NCBI GenBank assembly: GCA_031835245.2
Contig: JAVKOQ020000041.1
Span: 62,001 to 126,000 of the forward strand
Source of the DNA: Balamuthia mandrillaris
Lineage: Eukaryota
Length of the DNA: 64,000 nucleotides
Direction of reading: 5' to 3'
Numbering within the stretch: position 1 is the first letter of the stretch; the number at the start of each line of letters is the position of its first letter. The notes under the pieces are model-generated. The model did not search any database and was not told the origin of the DNA. It saw only the letters and a program-made list of their open reading frames with translations. Position numbers and translations under genes: made by a program. Positions 4,158 through 13,000 of the stretch are shown here, in pieces.

Positions 4158-5006
4158 TCAACAACCACAGATTCCTCCTCCTCCACCGTCACAGCTCAAA
4201 ACGACAGAACAAGCGCTGTAGGCAGCGACTGATGAACCGCCATCGCTTGACGATGAACTGGTGCTGTCACTCGTTTCGTTGTACGAAGCGCTCACTCTAC
4301 GGAGCCAGTCGATGAGAGAGCACAGCACAAGCACCAGACCCAGGTGCTCTCCTTGCTTGGCGAACACCTCGTACGTTCTTCTCCCGGTGAAGGAGCTGCA
4401 TTTCTTCAGGGTGAGCCTAGCCACTTTGTTGCCCGTCCTCTTGAAGAAAAAGGTTTGGCTGTAGCATGAAACCTTTTCCACATACGTGATGCCATCTTTG
4501 AAGTCCTCCGCGAGCTCAACTTGTACATTGTAGGCTAAGGGGGAAAAGCGGCTTGCTCTCTTTGCCTTTTTGTTTTATCAAAACGTTAACAACAACACCT
4601 TCAAAGCAAAAACGGCAGACTAGTCAAAACCTTGATGGTGGCACAGCACAGGCCGTTCTTTTTCCCAGCCGTTACCTTCCATTCGAATGAGGTCTTTGCT
4701 TTGTTGCCCTTTGCATAGAGCAGGCATTGCTTCCCTTTGGTGGCTGCCAACAGCTGAAAGTCCGGGGTCGAGCCCAGAAAGCTGTGGGCCTTGATGGTGC
4801 AGAGTTTGGTATCGCCACAGTAGACAACTTTGGAGGTATGGAAAGGGTTTTTATCCCTGAAACACAAACCCTTTTGTTAGTTTGAAAGGAAGCAGAAGAA
4901 ACATCAAACGACGAAAAAAAACAAAAGCGTACTTGAGACAAAGCGTTATAGCCTCAGCAGGCTTGAGGCCCAGCCCTTTTGTTGTGGTGAACCCTTCAAT
5001 GTCCAT
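4158..5006 (-). CDS. LURP-one/Tubby-C/scramblase-like beta-barrel protein, spliced
   Basis: Exons MDIEGFTTTKGLG..., KLCTIKAHSFLGSTPDFQL..., KVARLTLKKCSSFTGRRTYEVFAKQGEHLGLVLVLCSLID; the C-terminal 'TY.V....G.D.....alc..iD' pattern is typical of LURP-one-like proteins. Confidence 0.5.
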
Positions 5007-5429
5007 AGCTATAAGGATGTATGTTGTTTTATTATTATTATTATTTTTTTTCGTTTGCTTTTCTGCGTTTGAATGTTTCTTTTTCAAGTTGCCAACAAAA
5101 AAGTAAGAAAAGTCAGCAAACCGACTTAGAATATCAGGTGGGAAGGTAGAAGTGATAGGAATAAGCACAGTAACCAACTGCTTCAAGGCATTTCCTGGAA
5201 TTTCTCAAAAGATGTTGGTGTTGCGTTCGTTGTCCTCGTTCCTCCTCGTTCTTTATGAGAGTCCGAGATAATGTGAGCCCGCATGAGTAGACAAAACCAT
5301 GATTACACACTCACGCTTTTCCCCTTTGTCTCTGTGGGAAAAGTACATGGCTCCGCAATACTTATGTCTACCCTGCGGCAGGAATAATAATGAACCACCA
5401 ATCAAATATCAAAAATTTATTCTTATGTT

Positions 5430-5966
5430 TGTCGTCTTTTTGGTAATTGGGAAGGCCCAAGCATACTTTGAGAATATATCAATTACAGTCAAAATATACT
5501 AATGATGCGTGTTAAAGCCATGTAGTTGTGACAGGTCAATAAGATCTGCCTGAATCCACTCATGTGGCTTTCTTGCTCTAATTGGCTTCTTTACCTTGAT
5601 TTTGTGAATGGGCTGATGTAGCTGATTAGTGTGATTGCATTGCAAATACACCACCACATCGCACCTGCTTATTCCAATAAACACTTCTGCAGCTCTTTTA
5701 AACAACTTATCTCTGCCAAAAGCCATAGTATTTGGGGCCTCCATGAGCTCGCCTAGGACTCTGTCAATTGCGCCAGTTGGCACAACAATCCTCCCATCAT
5801 ATTTGGCCACTATAGTATCATCTGTGCCATCTTGTAGCTTAAAATGCTGCCATTTGTCTTTAAACCGCTTCGCCTGGGCTACATTCTCAAGCAATTGCCC
5901 ACTGCTTAGAAACTCAAGCCCAGCATCATAAGTCTCATCTGTAAACTTGTACTTTGAATAATTCAT
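5430..5966 (-). pseudogene. Retroviral-type (rve) integrase, N-terminal half, disrupted
   Basis: Integrase zinc-binding-like region (GRDKLFKR...GISRCDVVVYLQC...Q) then WIQADLIDLSQL; reading through the TAG at 5499-5501 gives YILTVIDIFSKYAWAFPITKK, the canonical rve core strand; similarity ends at ~5430. Confidence 0.85.
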
Positions 5967-6218
5967 TATCTTATATTAAGGAAACTAAATAAGTTTTGTA
6001 TCAACTAGATACAGGTTTAACAACAATAGGCAAGGAGTGTTAAACTTATATAACAAATGGTAACATCCTATAGGGCGGCATAACGGTGTGGCAATAGGCT
6101 GGCCAAAAAAAGTAGTATTTGGGTCACACCTTGTTAATAATTGTAAAATACGTTTAGCAAGTAAATAGAAATAATGACAAACCCCATTGTTTAGATGAAG
6201 ACCAAATCCAAGCCCATC

Positions 6219-6485
6219 TCATCTCTTTTGATATCTCTGTCCGAAAATATTCCATGGGTTGGGAGTTCTCCGAGGTGGAGATGGTTTACATCTCCTATCA
6301 AACTTAGCTTGATATTCAGGCCAGATATGGTTTATACACATGAATGTGCTTTTCATATTCTTCTTATGTTCTGCTTTATATTCTTCCATATCAGCCTTCC
6401 TAAGCTCATTGCTGATCATAACTTGCAATTCCGGTGGCAAAGGCAAGTTCAGCAAAGCTACCCTCTCATCTATGTTCCAATTCAT
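6219..6485 (-). CDS. Small orphan ORF of the viral element
   Basis: 88-aa intronless ATG ORF (MNWNIDERVALLNLPLPPELQVMI...) within the island; function unknown. Confidence 0.4.
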   Translation of the reverse strand: MNWNIDERVALLNLPLPPELQVMISNELRKADMEEYKAEHKKNMKSTFMCINHIWPEYQAKFDRRCKPSPPRRTPNPWNIFGQRYQKR

Positions 6486-6594
6486 GAGTGTAAGTTGAGA
6501 TAAGTGCTATATAAGTAGCAGAGATAATTTTTTAATGACAAAAAAGAAAGGATATAGCACGTCATATAGTCAAGAAAAGTAACAGGAGAGAAGA

Positions 6595-6894
6595 TCAGGA
6601 AGCCGGATGGGCCGCAAGCCACGTCTTTGCATGCTCTATCACCACTGCTTGTGGCAACTCAGAATGCAAAGTGTTGATAAAAAGGTCAATATATTGGCTG
6701 ATTAGCTCTTTTACTCTAGGCCGCATAGGCTTATCAAGAATGAAGCCTATTTTAAAAGCTGCAACTGTGTGGTTGGCAAGTGGTATAAAGTGGACGGTTT
6801 GCTTAAGAAAGCGCTGCTTTATATATTTGTTAACTGCAGGGCACTCTCTAAGGCGCAAATAATAAAAATAAACAATATGACAAAAGAAATTCAA
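6595..6894 (-). CDS. Small orphan ORF (possibly decayed) of the viral element
   Basis: ~99-codon open frame, protein-like C-terminal half; non-ATG start in the ORF track. Confidence 0.3.
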   Translation of the reverse strand: MNFFCHIVYFYYLRLRECPAVNKYIKQRFLKQTVHFIPLANHTVAAFKIGFILDKPMRPRVKELISQYIDLFINTLHSELPQAVVIEHAKTWLAAHPAS

Positions 6895-7504
6895 GCCAAG
6901 CCTAACTGCAATAATTTTAACGTTTGTCTCTGAAATTAATATTAGCTCCTATGGCAAAACAACTGTTTATTTTTTTGTTAAGCAAATAATATACTTTGAT
7001 AACAGAAATGTCGCAATCTGGTGGGCTTAAGTCGCCTGAAAGTGCAAAGGATTGGTATTATGAAGGCTTTGTTTGCAAAAAGAGGTGAATGAGAGTACTT
7101 GCTAAAAGATGGTTTGCGTTGATTAACATCATTTATCTTAAGTGTTAATCTGTTTAACCTTTGATTAACATTGCCACTTGGTTTATGTCTTAGCTTATAT
7201 TCAAACTACAGAGTGATTGGCTTTGTTTTTTGTATTAGCCCTAGTGGTGTTAACATTATTTATTTTTTACTAGTTATACTAATATAACAATTATTAACAG
7301 TGCCTAACATTTTATAAAAATTTTCTGGCTTGACCCTCCTATCTCTGTATAAAATCTCACACACTGTTAACAATTGTAAAATAAGTATAACACCCATTAC
7401 TAAATAATGTTAATCACCTATCAGATTATATCTTGCTAAGTAATGCTAGGCCTTGTAAGCTAAATAAAAGCCCATTCCAGTTTGTTGCTCTTTGTGATTA
7501 ACAA

Positions 7505-8191
7505 TCAAAAAAAAATGATGTTAAACAGGGTCAAACAGTGTTGCTCATTCCAAAACAATGCTACCTTGAGAGAGATATCTTTGATTCCAAGTAACTCATT
7601 AAAGGCCATACTGTGCTCTTCAGCTGTTAACACACCTTTCTTCCTCAGCATATCAAAACCACTATCTATTTCCTTCCATAATTTCTTACTATGATTGCCA
7701 TTCTTCCAAGTAGCACCAAGCCTCTGCAATTGCTTAATTACATTATCTACACTAAAATCATACTGCAAAGATGGCTTAGTTTTGCCAAGCATGGGTTTCG
7801 CCTCATAGCCACCTCTTTGTTTTCTCTGTTGTGGCTTTTTGCCCCCAAGAAGTACCATCATGTTGTGTGCGAGACCAGTGCCAGTTTGAGCACGAGGATC
7901 AAATTTCTTGACTATTTCACAACCCTTGGTTATACGAGACCTTGCATTGGCAGTCAAATTGCCAGGAATGGGATTTGCATCAATGCCAGCCAACACAAAG
8001 TAAGTGGCCCAATCCTTAGCGTATTTATCCTTATAAATCTCTTCTTCTTGTTGGGCATTTGCACCATGTAACATAAGATACTTCAATGCTGGAGTTAAGT
8101 CAAGTTCACCACTCCTGGATTCATTCCCAAGCTGATGAAACCTAGCCTTATCCGCATTTGCCAATGAGTTGCCATCTGGCACTATGACCAT
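7505..8191 (-). CDS. Polinton-like conserved hypothetical protein, C-terminal part
   Basis: Motifs DLTPALKYLML...EEEIYKD and NVIKQLQRLGATWKNGNHSKKLWKEIDSGFDMLRKKGVLT resemble from memory the 'TPGL..Ll' and 'L..L.as..aGN.....EI..i.d.L...G.I' motifs of uncharacterised Polinton/Maverick ORFs. Confidence 0.5.
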   Translation of the reverse strand: MVIVPDGNSLANADKARFHQLGNESRSGELDLTPALKYLMLHGANAQQEEEIYKDKYAKDWATYFVLAGIDANPIPGNLTANARSRITKGCEIVKKFDPRAQTGTGLAHNMMVLLGGKKPQQRKQRGGYEAKPMLGKTKPSLQYDFSVDNVIKQLQRLGATWKNGNHSKKLWKEIDSGFDMLRKKGVLTAEEHSMAFNELLGIKDISLKVALFWNEQHCLTLFNIIFF

Positions 8192-8213
8192 ATTTCACAA
8201 CACATAACTGTTT

Positions 8214-8999
8214 TTAAGGTAGTTCTTTCAGTTGCTGCAGTTGATCTTCCCTTGCATTAACATTCACTTCCAGATTATATCTCTTTCCGCCTTCTTCCAT
8301 CTGCACTAATTTCTTACCATCTGCTTTGATTTCCCACTTCACATTCCTCATAAAATAATCAACAGGAATAGCATTAAGAGGCTTAGAAAGATGACTGCCT
8401 GGGCTTCCCTTTGCAAACAAATCAACCTGTTTACCATAAGACCTCATGCTTGGCATAAATGGCTCATCTGGCTTCTGAGGAGTTAATGGTTGTGCGGCTC
8501 CTGATGGCCGAGGTGCAAATTTTGGCAATTCTGGTGTCACAGGGAGTGGTGATTCAACTACTTTGTCTTTGCCTTTGGACTTGCTAGGTGTGCTAGCTTT
8601 GCTGCTAGATCCTGCTTCACTGCTAGTTCCGGCTTTGCTACTAGGGCCTGCTTTTGAGCTTCCAGGGCCGTACACTAGCACAAGATTGCCATCTTCATCA
8701 ACATCATAAATGTTCTTAATCCTATCATCTTCATAATCTACACTTTTTGGTATTTTGTCTTCATCAATTGCCTTAGTAGGCTCATCCTGAAGGCCATGTC
8801 TGTGTCTTGCAGCAGCATCACTTCTTACGCCTTTTATCTCATCTGTGATAGGGCCAGTGAATTTGCCTATCTCGGCCAGCTCCATTTGGTGACCCATTGC
8901 TCTGGCGTGGCTGCAATTGCGCAAATCCACCTGTTGACTTGCCACAAGCTTAGTCAGCTTGATCAAATCGGCTGGTATTTTAATAGGTATGTATTGCAT
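8214..8999 (-). CDS. Viral-element hypothetical protein, probably the N-terminal part of the 7505-8191 protein
   Basis: ATG at 8999 (MQYIPIKIPADL...), GKFTGPITDEIK motif, short SS(K/E)AG repeats; only 22 nt from the next same-strand ORF. Confidence 0.55.
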   Translation of the reverse strand: MQYIPIKIPADLIKLTKLVASQQVDLRNCSHARAMGHQMELAEIGKFTGPITDEIKGVRSDAAARHRHGLQDEPTKAIDEDKIPKSVDYEDDRIKNIYDVDEDGNLVLVYGPGSSKAGPSSKAGTSSEAGSSSKASTPSKSKGKDKVVESPLPVTPELPKFAPRPSGAAQPLTPQKPDEPFMPSMRSYGKQVDLFAKGSPGSHLSKPLNAIPVDYFMRNVKWEIKADGKKLVQMEEGGKRYNLEVNVNAREDQLQQLKELP

Positions 9000-9025
9000 A
9001 GTATATTTTAGTAATAAAAAAAAAA

Positions 9026-9483
9026 ATGTGCAAAAAAAAAAAAGCCAGCTAAAAGAGCGAGAAGAATTGCAAAGAAAGCTCCACCAAAGGAGCCAGAAGA
9101 TGGCGAATTCAAGTACCATAACATGGATGATTTTATTGATGATGAGGAGAAACTTGTCACTTTGCCACCCAAGCACTTTCTTGCACCAAAATTGCATTTC
9201 TGGATGCTTGTGCTTGGGTGGCAGAACAGATTGTGGCAAGACCAATCACATTGTAGATTTACTGTTTCATATACTGAGGTTTGACAGACTATTCCTCTTT
9301 GCAGCCAATCTTACAGAGTCGAAATATAAGCTAATTATAGAGTGGATGAGGGAATGGAAGCAAGAAACAGGCATACAAAAGCTCTGGGTTGCTGATAAAG
9401 TAGAAAATATTGTGCCACTTGATAAAATCGACAAGAATTACCACAATATTGTGTTGTTTGACGACTTTGTAAACGTAAAGCAG
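9026..9483 (+). pseudogene. A32/FtsK-HerA-type DNA packaging ATPase, frameshifted and 3'-truncated
   Basis: Walker A GGRTDCGKTN, then LLFHILRFDRLFLFAANL.ESKY, Walker B NIVLFDDF; an alternate upstream frame gives KHFLAPKLHFWMLVLG (cf. P..pFRmli.G of Polinton ATPases); similarity stops just after Walker B. Confidence 0.8.
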
Positions 9484-9559
9484 GTCAGATTGTGTACAAA
9501 ACGGTGTTCTTGAGGGGTCAACTTGGTGGGCTTTTTTTTGATTAATTGGCCGGAAACAG

Positions 9560-9914
9560 GTACTGTCTATTGGACGGCCTCAAGGTGGAACGGCTCTTGT
9601 CTTTCGCTCTGCGACAACGATCGCCAGAACCGGAAACGGGACGCGCAGCACGGAGAGCAACAAAGGAGCGTGTTGGGTGTGTTCTTTGTTTGGCGGATGC
9701 AGAAGAGGAAGACGAGTCTCCGCTTCAACGTGTCGTCTTTTTGCCTTGCGGCCACCTTTGTTGTTGTTTGGTTCGTTGGTTCTTTTTTCTTTTTTCTTTT
9801 TTCTTTTTTTCTGATATTTTTTTTAAACAAAAAAAGGGTTGTGGCGAAAAGTTGAGACGATGTCCTCTGTGAAGAGCCGCGATAGAGCAACAAGTTCTCG
9901 TCTTTCTGCCTTAG
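9560..9914 (+). pseudogene. 3' remnant of a C3HC4 RING finger gene
   Basis: CVLC...VVFLPCGHLCCC, intron, then GCGEKLRRCPL*RAAIEQQVLVFLP*; TGA at 9870-9872 replaces the last Zn-ligand Cys; no 5' exons visible, since the viral island lies upstream. Confidence 0.65.
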
Positions 9915-9928
9915 CTTTCATCGCAAAC

Positions 9929-10005
<77 letters not shown>

Positions 10006-10086
10006 AAGAAGCAAGAAGCGCATAACGAAGAGAAAGATGTAAACTGTTATTCTTTGTACAGTGTTTGTTATTGTTGTATAAAAAGT

Positions 10087-13000
10087 TTATGAAGCAGTAA
10101 CGATTGTGGCGGCAGCCAGGGGAGAGGGGGTGTTGTTGTCGTTATCGTTGCTTTCACTTGCTTTCACTGATGGTGGTTGCTGTTGTTGTCTTTTCTCTCT
10201 TTCCAAGCGCTTCTGTCGTTCGCTTTTCATTATTTCTTTCCGTTTATCAAGAGCAGATGGTGTCGTTGTCTTGTTGCGAGTTGCTGCAGTCGTTGTTGTT
10301 GCTTTTGGTGTTGTTGTCGGTGTTGTGGAAGATGTTCTGGTTGCTGGCATTGTTGGCGTTGTTGGCGTTCCTCTTCTCGTTAGCGCTGTTCTTCTTGTTG
10401 CTGCTGCGGAAGAGGGAGTAGAGGAAGAAGAGGGGGATGGAGTGGAAGAAGAAGGACGGGTAAGCCGACCTCTTGTTGGTGGTAGTGTTGAAGTTGGACT
10501 TCGTTGCTGCGAAGATGAAGCAGATACTGCATTTCGAGTGGGGGACGAAGGAGATACAGAAGAAACACCACGTGGTGTTGGTGGAGAAAGCCTTCTCGCT
10601 GCGGTTGCTGTATTGGTGGCGGATGCTTTGTTCGTTGGTGCAACAGAACGGGGTGGTGGCGCTGTTCTTCTTGTTGTTGCTGTCGTTGTTCTTGAGGAAG
10701 AAGCAGCAGTAAGTCTATTTGGAGAAGCGCTGCGATTGGAAGGAACGGAAGAGACAGGGGCAGAATGAGGCGGAGAAGGAGCCCTTTGAGGGGCTGTCTT
10801 TCCAAAGCGAGTTGGCGAAGAGAGCTTTTGAGTGGAATTGTTTGTTGATATCGTTGTCCTTGTTGGAGAACGAGTTGTGCTTAAAGAAGAAGAAGCAGAA
10901 GAAGTGGTAGAAGAACGGGAAGGAGAAGAAGATCGCGGGGGAGTGGAAGCTTTTCTTCTTCCTAACACGGGAGAAGCTGCTCTTTTTGTCGTTGTCGTTG
11001 TTGTTGTTGAAACGGAGGAACGTTGTGGTGAAGCGGAGCGTTGTTGCACAGAGGTAGAAGCAGCAGAAGCAGAGCTTCGTGAAGTGGGGTTCAAACTTTG
11101 TGTTCTCCGTCTTCTTTCTGGCACTCGCTTCGTCTCTTTTCCATCTGTAGTTGTGGCTGTGGGAGTTCCACGACTATTGGATGTGGGCACCACGTTTGGC
11201 CTTTCTTGAATTTTAGCTGAGGCTTGTTTTCCTCGTCTTTCTTCCTTTGGAGGTGATGAAGGAGCAGTTGGAGCGTTGTTGTCTTCTTCAGTTCTGTTTT
11301 GTTGTGGGGCACTTTGTTGAGTTTGTACGGTCTCGTTTTGCTTATCTCCGTCCGCGTTATTGTTACTGACTTTCTCTTTCTCTTTCTCTTTCTCTTTCTC
11401 TTTCTCTTTCTCTTTCTCTTTCTCTTTCTCTTTCTCTTTCTCTTTCTCTTTCTCTTTCTCTTTCTCTTTCTCTTTCTCTTTCTCTTTCTCCGCCTTTTCT
11501 TGTTCCTCCTTCTCTTTCTCATCTTGCTTTGCTTTCTCCACTATCTTGCTTTCTCCTTCGTCAACTGTATCAGAAGAAGTTATGGTCGAAGATGCAGCGG
11601 TGAGCAATGAAATATCATCTGGAGTGATAGTATCGCTTTTGCTGCGTCGATGACCATATTGTTGTTGCTGTTGTTGTTCCACGACAACTGAAGAAGAGTC
11701 GCTTTGCTGTTGTTTTTGTGGGTTGTGAGAAGCGTCCAAGCTTCTGAAAAAGGAAGAAGGAAAGGAATAAGAAAGCGATCTTCCTTTCTTCTTCTTCACT
11801 CTTCGTTCCTCTTCTTTTCCATCTTCCATGGCTTGTTGTATGTTTTTCTCTTTCTTTTCTTTGTTGAAGCTTCGAAACTTGCTGCGAAGAGTGGTTGCGC
11901 TGAGAACTTTCCTCAGCACAGGAGAAGGGAGCGGAGGTGACGTACTCCTGTTACCTCCAATTTCCTCCGCTCCTCCTTCTTCCTTCTCTCGTTCGTCTTC
12001 AAGTTTATGTTCTGGCAAAGCAGATGAAGAGTGAAACTTTCGAGGAGCAAAAAACTTTCTCGGAGACTTCGAAGAAGCGGAGCCTCTTCGCTCAGGACGC
12101 GGAGATGACGTTGTAGTTGTCGTCGCTTTAGTAGACTTCGTGATTGGAGTGTCGTGCGATGAAGCAATTGAAGAAGTAGAAGGAGAAGGAAGAGGCGGAG
12201 AAGAAAAGCTGTTACGGCGACGAGAAGGAGCAATGGGAGAACTCGGACCGAACGTCTTTAACACTAGCTCCATCTCTCTTTGCTCCTTTGTGCTATTGTT
12301 GTTACTGGAACTGTTCTTTCCTCGCTCCTTCTCGATTGCACTCTGTATCTTTCTTTCTAACGCTTCCTTTCTTCTCCTCATCATCACTTCTTCATCCTCT
12401 CCCTCTTTGCCATTTCCGTTTCCATCTTCTTGTTCCGTCTCTGGCGTTCCGTCTTTCTTCATTCTTCTCTCCTCTCTCTCTTGGCTCTCCGCTTTGACTT
12501 TGTGCTTCAACTCGTGAATGCGAGCAAGAACGGCCTCTCGCTTGGCCAAGCCCTCCACAAGCTTGCTGCGCCTCTCCTCCCGCTGCTTCTCCACTTTGCG
12601 GCGCTGCTCCTCCTCAAGGCGGCGTCGCTGCCGCTCTCTCTCCAAGGAGCGCAGCCGCACGTTCTCCTTCCAGTCCGAAAGGCTCTTTTGGACGTGAGCA
12701 AGCCAGACCTTCATCCCTGCGTTCACTCTCCTTCTTCTTATCTTCCTTTTCGTTTGTACGTCGTCTTCCTTTCGACTTTGTTCTCTTTTTGTGTGTTCTT
12801 CTTCTCGCTTGTCGTTGGAAGAAGAAAGAGAAGAAAGAGAAGAAGAAGAAGAAGAAGAAGAAGAAGAAGAAGAAGAAAGAGAAGTAGGAAAGAAAGCAGA
12901 AGTAACTTGACGACGAGAGGAGAGGTGAGGCAGAGTGGGAGGACGGGGAGTGGGAGAGAGGCGACGCGACTCGATCAGCGCCTTTTCTATGAGAATGCGG

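What the first reader, a model, noticed from the sequence alone, without database searches (positions are those of the whole stretch)
5430..9483. Endogenous Polinton-like/virophage-like viral fragment (integrase + packaging ATPase) in a protist genome
Seen: a ~4 kb island that differs sharply from the host (AT-rich, no introns, no GA/GAA microsatellites, tightly packed ORFs). It carries an rve integrase (QADLIDL...YILTVIDIFSKYAWAFP) and an ATPase with Walker A GGRTDCGKTN and Walker B VLFDD. Established: rve integrase plus A32/FtsK-HerA packaging ATPase is the signature pairing of Polintons/Mavericks, Mavirus-type virophages and related integrating dsDNA viruses. Inference: this is a remnant of an integrating virus of an amoeba-like host, possibly of an undescribed lineage, since the intervening ORFs are orphans to my eye. 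No capsid, pPolB, protease, TIR or TSD is visible, so it is a fragment.
Basis: partly seen in the sequence, partly recalled or inferred. Interest (0 to 1): 0.88.

Follow-up and report, generated by a model that had tools for sequence, protein, structure and literature searches.

The report
Decayed Polinton-like virus in Balamuthia amoeba
This 4-kb stretch in the genome of an amoeba (matched to Balamuthia mandrillaris by one of its proteins) holds broken genes for a retrovirus-type integrase and a viral DNA-packaging motor, and is likely the dead remnant of a small integrating DNA virus, a kind of fossil that is common in protist genomes.

Summary
The island is real: GC 38.7% against 42.6-50% in the host, CpG o/e 0.31 against 0.66-0.89. 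It carries an rve integrase and an A32-type packaging ATPase (16 of 16 top homologues scanned pass Pfam Pox_A32). Both are pseudogenes: the integrase has an internal stop and ends after the first catalytic Asp; the ATPase has no start codon, is frameshifted and is cut after Walker B. A public contig repeats these lesions and bridges into host sequence on both sides, at about half the depth of the flank. One 'orphan' weakly matches a helical domain found beside or fused to ATPases in Polinton/PLV/virophage contigs. A second isolate holds several 88-97% identical, deleted and rearranged copies, and Balamuthia has a 48%-identical paralogue. Bellas et al. 2023 already list two capsid genes in this species. 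No capsid, polymerase, protease, TIR or TSD is present, so the class (Polinton, PLV or virophage) cannot be fixed. The integrase falls outside the canonical Maverick clade, and nothing known is above about 44% identical. Verdict: a degraded endogenous Polisuviricotina-type element of an unplaced lineage; ordinary in kind. A pair of related intergenic palindromes is the one unusual feature.

The parts
5426..9483 (.). Core of the endogenous viral fragment (left edge about 5416-5426; right edge between 9483 and about 9580)
   Evidence: Composition; one contig at half flank depth; joints at 5426 and 9482-9505 in copies from a second isolate
5426..5966 (-). rve (DDE) integrase pseudogene: extended N-terminus plus first third of the core; stop at 5501-5499; cut after YAWAFPITKK
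   Evidence: Pfam rve E=0.003, below cut-off; 28 homologues, all rve, best E=1.7e-26; own HMM 109 bits over 5783-5430
6035..6165 (.). Palindrome 1: degenerate paralogue of palindrome 2, between the integrase and the 95-codon ORF
   Evidence: Arms 81-83% identical to palindrome 2; does not fold better than shuffles, z -0.3 and -0.7
6219..6506 (-). 95-codon open frame with no family match
   Evidence: No meaningful hit in Pfam, NCBIfam or PHROGs or in fetched loci
6595..6948 (-). 117-codon open frame with no family match; may be a decayed gene or non-coding
   Evidence: No meaningful hit
7247..7418 (-). Palindrome 2: AT-rich hairpin of about 170 nt, starting about 90 nt downstream of the stop of the 7505-8185 gene
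   Evidence: z=-8.45 on the minus strand, -6.0 on plus; 63 pairs, -62.9 against -43.4 kcal/mol
7505..8185 (-). 226-aa ORF with a C-terminal three-helix 'GN' domain like that in Polinton/PLV/virophage proteins beside or fused to the ATPase
   Evidence: Best of 920 sequences against an 8-sequence HMM, E=4e-4; paralogue P0003 48% identical; three helices at pLDDT about 75
8214..8999 (-). 261-aa low-complexity ORF head-to-head with the ATPase; possibly the 5' part of the same gene as 7505-8185
   Evidence: Weak pairwise match to the N-terminal part of P0003, E=0.027; no family hit
9042..9483 (+). A32/FtsK-HerA packaging ATPase pseudogene: no ATG, frameshift at about 9216, Walker A and B present, arginine-finger half missing or decayed
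   Evidence: 194 homologues at E<=0.001; 16 of 16 scanned pass Pox_A32; own HMM 100.8 bits over 9211-9483
9484..9560 (+). Uncertain edge: possibly the decayed continuation of the ATPase in a shifted frame
   Evidence: Position-constrained score 8.0 bits, p=0.075 against 1500 random host places; follows integrase pieces in copies from the second isolate

Best explanation
The island is likely a dead, truncated remnant of a small integrating double-stranded DNA virus of the Polinton/Polinton-like/virophage group in the nuclear genome of Balamuthia; its integrase and packaging-ATPase genes are both broken. Shown: the two hallmark genes and their lesions, foreign composition, contiguity with host sequence, about half the depth of the flank in one sample, and several diverged, deleted and rearranged copies in a second isolate. 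Inferred: an intact parent would have inserted itself with the rve integrase and packaged its genome with the A32 ATPase into a double-jelly-roll capsid encoded elsewhere in the element; after insertion this copy would have been silenced (CpG loss fits cytosine methylation, as measured for viral inserts in Acanthamoeba), lost both ends and its capsid and replication genes, and decayed by stops, frameshifts, deletions and inversions. It is probably carried on only some chromosome copies and does nothing now.
For: ATPase fragment: 194 hits at E<=0.001, mostly 210-260 aa; 16 of 16 scanned (the top 16 of 150 listed) pass Pox_A32. 3 of 26 viral contigs found with the ATPase alignment also encode an rve integrase; these include the best match L052 (59.7 bits) and L069, which has a double-jelly-roll capsid gene. 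Integrase: 28 of 28 homologues are rve, 13 with a chromodomain, none with a reverse transcriptase domain although proteins up to 2000 aa were eligible; it scores 104-110 bits to its nearest kin, 39 to a virophage integrase and 21 to an LTR integrase. The GN-domain ORF is the best of 920 sequences, E=4e-4. Run X2 has one 4383-nt contig over 5362-9743 with 0 mismatches and 1 gap, at depth 87 against 143-170 for left-flank contigs; in X1 the island depth (23) equals that of the window-type flank allele (22, other allele 26). Runs X3/X4 (another sample and study) hold 88-97% identical pieces with 10 distinct joints that begin inside the island; one contig bridges 9105-9485 to 9559-9743. A paralogue lies on two other Balamuthia contigs. 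Two capsid genes are listed for this species in PMC10120064 Table S2.
Against: No capsid, penton, protease, polymerase or helicase gene matched anywhere in the 64 kb with 500 ORFs from viral loci; no TIR or TSD was found. The fragments alone score below Pfam cut-offs (rve 18.2 bits; Pox_A32 13 bits). The integrase lies outside the canonical Maverick clade (100/99), and its closest kin with context sit beside a primase-helicase-like gene (L003) or a telomere resolvase (L078), with no capsid in the DNA held. The ATPase tree is unresolved for this row. The GN-domain seeds were picked by a motif first seen in the query, so that E-value is optimistic. X1/X2 may be the sample the window came from, so they are not independent. 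No link between this family and the two listed capsid genes could be tested. C>T plus G>A changes are in excess in X3 (70 against 43 reverse changes, of 173) but not in X4 (54 against 50, of 175), so methylation-driven decay is not shown.
Confidence: 0.8

Rival explanations
1. A chimera: a Polinton-like morphogenetic piece (ATPase plus GN-domain gene) joined to the integrase of a separate capsid-less mobile element (transpoviron-like or Ginger2/Tdd-like).
For: The closest integrases form their own group (96*; unresolved) and lie beside an AEP/DUF5906 primase-helicase-like gene in eukaryote-like DNA (L003) or a telomere resolvase (L078), without capsid genes. In the second isolate the integrase segment 5981-5426 also occurs inverted at 9482/9484, inside or just after the ATPase. 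Module swapping is described for these viruses (10.64898/2026.10.13.758929, section 13 read).
Against: Most of those contigs are under 3 kb, too short to show a capsid. The moved segment ends inside the coding region and has no TIRs. Composition is uniform across the island. An AU test does not reject placing the integrase with Mavericks (p=0.117). The 5981/5982 adjacency also exists in the second isolate (contig over 5844-6238).
Confidence: 0.12
2. A fragment of a giant-virus (Nucleocytoviricota) genome, like the inserts described in Acanthamoeba, in which A32 and an rve integrase happen to lie close.
For: Pox_A32 covers NCLDV ATPases too; Acanthamoeba inserts are attributed to giant viruses (PMC12210455, passages); the two listed Balamuthia capsid genes have NCLDV-type HHpred top hits; the long AT-rich hairpin recalls mimivirus terminators.
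Against: The four contigs annotated among the 26 that share the ATPase are small-virus contigs (L052, L053, L054, L069), 5-26 kb long, none showing an NCLDV core gene; the GN domain came from the same small-virus loci. No NCLDV reference set was in the tree, so this was not tested directly.
Confidence: 0.06
3. An assembly chimera with contaminating viral DNA, the stops and frameshifts being sequencing errors in an intact virus.
For: PMC10120064 (passages) warns that many stops in protist EVEs are assembly artefacts; the island has about half the flank depth.
Against: An independently assembled contig reproduces 5362-9743 with 0 mismatches and only a poly-A gap at 9015; a second study holds related copies joined to the same right-hand sequence; sequence at 9638-9763 is matched exactly by a contig of another sample.
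Confidence: 0.02

Closest known systems
Polintons/Mavericks (Polintoviricetes); e.g. contigs L052 and L069 here
   Same: rve integrase plus A32-type ATPase in one element; an ATPase-divergent gene; the C-terminal GN domain (L069); L052 is the best ATPase match among viral contigs.
   Different: Integrase has an extended N-terminus and falls outside the chromodomain clade; no pPolB, protease, capsid, penton, TIR or TSD here; identities only 25-46%.
Virophages and PLVs with rve integrase (L001/L002 with Sputnik-type capsid genes; L053)
   Same: rve integrase at 34-36% identity; GN-domain gene next to the ATPase in L054-L066; AT-rich hairpins at gene ends are described for virophages and transpovirons (PMC7031253, passage).
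   Different: The ATPase of virophage L001 gave no match to the window ATPase; no virophage capsid or protease is present.
Balamuthia mandrillaris endogenous capsid loci in Bellas et al. 2023 (PMC10120064, Tables S1, S2, S4 rows seen)
   Same: Same host species, same broad virus group; two capsid ORFs of 466 and 459 aa whose counts fall under the table's 'Iterative HMM searches' columns rather than a named group.
   Different: Those loci have capsid genes; whether they are parents of this fragment is untested. The paper's main text was read only as passages.
Acanthamoeba viral insertions (PMC12210455; PMC11702301)
   Same: Strain-variable, degraded, methylated and poorly expressed viral DNA; some with TIRs, rve integrase and pseudogenised capsid genes (passages).
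   Different: PMC12210455 assigns its inserts to giant viruses, not PLVs; neither main text mentions Balamuthia (0 occurrences each).

Membership tests
Polinton/Maverick | rve (DDE) integrase | tested here: met
   rve fragment with first catalytic Asp; 28 of 28 homologues rve; pseudogene
Polinton/Maverick | Integrase within the Maverick chromodomain clade | tested here: inconclusive
   Outside the 100/99 clade, but AU p=0.117; clade labelled from session loci, not from reference genomes
Polinton/Maverick | Protein-primed DNA polymerase B | tested here: not met
   No match in the window to 500 ORFs of viral loci; could have been deleted
Polinton/Maverick | Terminal inverted repeats and 6-bp target-site duplication | tested here: not met
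   No inverted pair at the two edges in 4200-10200; both edges cut through genes
Polisuviricotina (Polinton, PLV, virophage) | A32/FtsK-HerA packaging ATPase | tested here: met
   16 of 16 top homologues pass Pox_A32; own HMM 100.8 bits; pseudogene
Polisuviricotina (Polinton, PLV, virophage) | Double-jelly-roll major capsid protein and penton | tested here: not met
   None in the window; capsid genes exist elsewhere in the species, link untested
Virophage (Virophaviricetes) | Virophage-type capsid, penton and cysteine protease | tested here: not met
   L001/L002 ORFs other than the integrase gave no match in the window
Virophage (Virophaviricetes) | Dependence on a giant virus for transcription and replication | not testable with these tools
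   Only a hint: hairpin downstream of a gene
LTR retrotransposon | Reverse transcriptase/RNase H and LTRs with the integrase | tested here: not met
   No RT among 28 homologues; the one LTR integrase sampled scores 21 bits and branches apart; no long direct repeats
Ginger/Tdd DNA transposon | Stand-alone integrase between TIRs, grouping with Ginger integrases | tested here: inconclusive
   No reference Ginger proteins were available; H2C2/PHD-bearing cellular integrases (my stand-ins) branch apart; no clear TIR pair around the L003 integrase
Nucleocytoviricota insert | NCLDV core genes; ATPase in an NCLDV clade | not tested

The most novel reading that the evidence does not exclude
The fragment marks an undescribed amoebozoan lineage of integrating virus that lives as a virophage: an atypical long-headed integrase, an unplaced ATPase, and repeated mimivirus-style hairpin terminators read by a giant virus of Balamuthia, with intact capsid-bearing parents still in the genome and copies rearranging differently in each isolate.
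Probability: 0.15. Interest if true: 0.62.

Novelty: new member of a known kind. Interest (0 to 1): 0.33.

Why it matters
If right, it adds an integrase/ATPase-bearing small DNA virus family to a human-pathogenic amoeba for which I found only two capsid genes listed in a survey table, shows that the family differs in copy and structure between isolates (a possible strain marker), and points to where an intact parent should be sought. Endogenous Polinton-like viruses are already known to be widespread in protists, so this copy is a modest addition. It would matter more if the parent proves to be a virophage, since that would imply a giant virus that infects Balamuthia.

Tried and rejected
No whole genome was held, so copies, capsid genes and the empty site could not be searched in the assembly. 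Direct scans of viral contigs with the ATPase fragment, the integrase and the GN-domain pair found no close relative; a word-based protein search with the ATPase fragment found none of 36 candidates. Expression: no RNA holder listed. Raw RNA runs X9 and X11 laid only 9 and 4 reads of 12.9 million each, one of them inside the island, so they say nothing. Contigs of X7 and X16 show the left-flank gene spliced and leave most of the island uncovered, apart from 9326-9542 in X7 at depth 2.6; contigs cannot show absence or level, so I draw no conclusion. Idea that the island is a simple inversion with gene continuations in the opposite flanks: tested with HMM scores; ATPase into the left flank p=0.20, integrase into the right flank p=0.51, integrase in place p=0.76, ATPase in place (shifted frame) p=0.075; none significant. 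A GRH-like motif match at 5375-5334 (3.9 bits, below the best null tiles) lies inside a multi-copy host repeat and was rejected. Fold of the GN-domain region (2-sequence alignment, mean pLDDT 59.6): no match at E<=0.001 in BFVD or PDB; Atlas search with P0002: nothing usable. PDB sequence search with the ATPase: nothing. Rfam on 4800-10000: 0 matches. NCBIfam gave only a weak IS481 match for the integrase, 26 bits against a cut-off of 224. The arm pattern matched 4 times against 0 in shuffles, but it was built from those arms, so the control is circular. In a window-wide scan palindrome 2 was only tied for first of 1597 minus-strand windows (z -2.8). Earlier-findings look-ups returned nothing. 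Literature: 'Balamuthia + polinton' gave 1 unrelated preprint; searches listed no paper on this element; subscription papers are not covered, the Bellas supplement file was cut when stored, and bioRxiv supplements are closed.
Full report
1. Observation. The stretch 5426-9483 differs from the rest of the window: GC 0.387 against 0.426-0.500 in 50 host windows of the same length, CpG o/e 0.31 against 0.66-0.89, TpA 0.80 against 0.31-0.60, and only two poly-A runs as simple repeats. Both genes are broken. The integrase (minus strand, ATG at 5966) has a TAG at 5501-5499 and its homology ends at about 5430, after the first catalytic Asp. The ATPase (plus strand) has no ATG, changes frame at about 9216 and loses clear homology after Walker B at 9483.

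2. Host and integration. The ORF at 7505-8185 is 100% identical over 97% of its length to a protein that NCBI labels Balamuthia mandrillaris, and 48% identical to a second one encoded on two contigs. In run X2 one 4383-nt contig covers 5362-9743 with 0 mismatches and one poly-A gap, so the stop and frameshift are not errors of this assembly. It begins inside a multi-copy host repeat on the left and runs 260 bases past the ATPase on the right. Its depth is 87 against 143-170 for left-flank contigs; in X1 the island (23) matches the window-type flank allele (22; other allele 26). I infer that the insert is on only some chromosome copies. X1/X2 are one sample and may be the window's source, so this is not independent.

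3. Other copies. X3 and X4 (one other sample, another study) hold pieces 88-97% identical, against about 97.6% for the flank allele, with joints 5475>5652, 5571>5719, 6238>7135, 6667>6961, 8084>8854, 9027>9105 and 9485>9559, and strand-switching joints 5426/9484, 5531/9505 and 5981/9482. That is at least three versions of the integrase segment, one of them lying inverted right after the ATPase piece. One contig bridges 9105-9485 to 9559-9743 with 189 bases on the shorter side, and this copy has an ATG where the window's ATPase lacks one. The family therefore predates the split of these isolates or inserted more than once, and has decayed by deletion and inversion. I could not tell alleles from separate loci.

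4. ATPase. The 89-residue fragment found 194 proteins at E<=0.001 among 1.84 billion, best 7.7e-12, 25-44% identical among the 150 listed. The top 16 all pass Pfam Pox_A32; none of the 15 ATPase hits looked up has an informative name. An alignment of 12 hits plus the query retrieved 26 viral contigs. Three also encode rve integrases; L069 has a double-jelly-roll capsid gene, and L052, the best match, has an rve-chromodomain integrase and a gene head-to-head with its ATPase, as here. A 50-row tree (hits beyond P0062 left out) leaves the window ATPase unplaced. No NCLDV references were included.

5. Integrase. All 28 homologues are rve proteins of 332-471 aa, 13 with a chromodomain and none with reverse transcriptase. 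Three (P0004-P0006, 38-41%) share its long N-terminal head. Loci fetched with these include virophages with Sputnik-type capsid genes (L001/L002), an LTR element (L013), H2C2/PHD-bearing cellular integrases, a eukaryote-like contig with a primase-helicase-like gene (L003) and a short contig with a telomere resolvase (L078). In a 52-row quick tree the window row groups with P0004-6, L003 and L004 (SH-aLRT 96). In a 29-row careful tree, with rows chosen by me, it lies on the virus side of a 94/94 split from the LTR and cellular rows, but outside the Maverick-type clade (100/99); holding it with that clade is not rejected (AU p=0.117). So it is Polinton/virophage-like but not a typical Maverick integrase.

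6. Middle region. The 226-aa ORF ends in a three-helix domain. An HMM from eight segments of proteins beside or fused to ATPases in the fetched viral loci, plus the Maverick-type L069, ranks it first of 920 sequences (E=4e-4) and P0003 second (E=0.02; next 0.7). The seeds were chosen by a motif seen in the query, so this is suggestive only. The 261-aa ORF may be the 5' half of the same gene, since P0003 weakly matches it as well (E=0.027). The short frames in 5980-7200 match nothing. Two related palindromes flank them, at 6035-6165 and 7247-7418. The second folds far better than shuffles, best on the strand of the upstream gene (z -8.45); the first does not. Flat depth in X1/X2 argues that they are not a high-copy host repeat. 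Hairpin terminators are described for mimiviruses, virophages and transpovirons (PMC4402537 abstract start; PMC7031253 passage), which is the basis of the novel case. Decayed internal transposon ends or replication-origin repeats are equally possible.

7. Mechanism. Shown: gene identities, lesions, integration in host DNA, variable copies. From established knowledge of Polintons and PLVs (PMC10120064 passages): the rve integrase inserts the genome and the A32 ATPase packages it. Inferred: insertion of a 15-30 kb parent, silencing by CpG methylation as measured in Acanthamoeba (PMC12210455 passages), then loss of ends and of capsid and replication genes. CpG depletion could instead be native to the virus, and the C>T/G>A excess is seen in X3 but not X4. 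Confidence 0.8 for a degraded Polisuviricotina-type element, 0.12 for a chimera with a separate integrase element, 0.06 for a giant-virus fragment, 0.02 for an artefact.

8. Novelty. Endogenous viruses of this group are common in protists, and Bellas et al. 2023 list two capsid genes in B. mandrillaris (supplement rows). My searches found no description of this locus or family. With capsid, polymerase and TIR tests not met, I file it as working like a Polinton/PLV remnant rather than as a member of a named class. New member of a known kind; interest 0.33.

Noticed in passing
window 5270-5391: Multi-copy dispersed host repeat of about 110 nt with inverted ends (MITE-like): depth several times the flank, many different loose ends at 5311 and 5379, folds at z -3.45 on the minus strand, one copy only in this window. 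It lies about 40 bases from the left edge of the insert.
   Followed up: partly
window 4381-5093, minus strand: Host gene with two GT-AG introns (4564-4630, 4855-4932) shown spliced in X7, X16 and raw reads of X9; it has paralogues and no Pfam match.
   Followed up: partly
window 5415: A contig in X2 follows the window to 5415 and then continues with 200 unrelated bases; it could be the empty allele or a paralogous site.
   Followed up: no
L003 3348-11347: Eukaryote-like metagenome contig with a 1278-aa primase-helicase-like gene (DUF5906), a partial inverted second copy of it, a close relative of the window integrase and an OLD-like TOPRIM/ATPase gene; possibly a capsid-less replicative element.
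   Followed up: partly
L078 74-2392: Telomere resolvase (ResT/TelK) gene directly followed by a relative of the window integrase on a 2.9-kb contig in a bacterial MAG; likely a mis-binned small eukaryotic virus or linear element.
   Followed up: partly
L001/L002: Virophage contigs with Sputnik-type major and minor capsid genes that also encode an rve integrase.
   Followed up: partly
window 48801-48930: Strongest GC-adjusted hairpin on the plus strand of the whole window (-51.6 kcal/mol, z -3.7); not examined.
   Followed up: no
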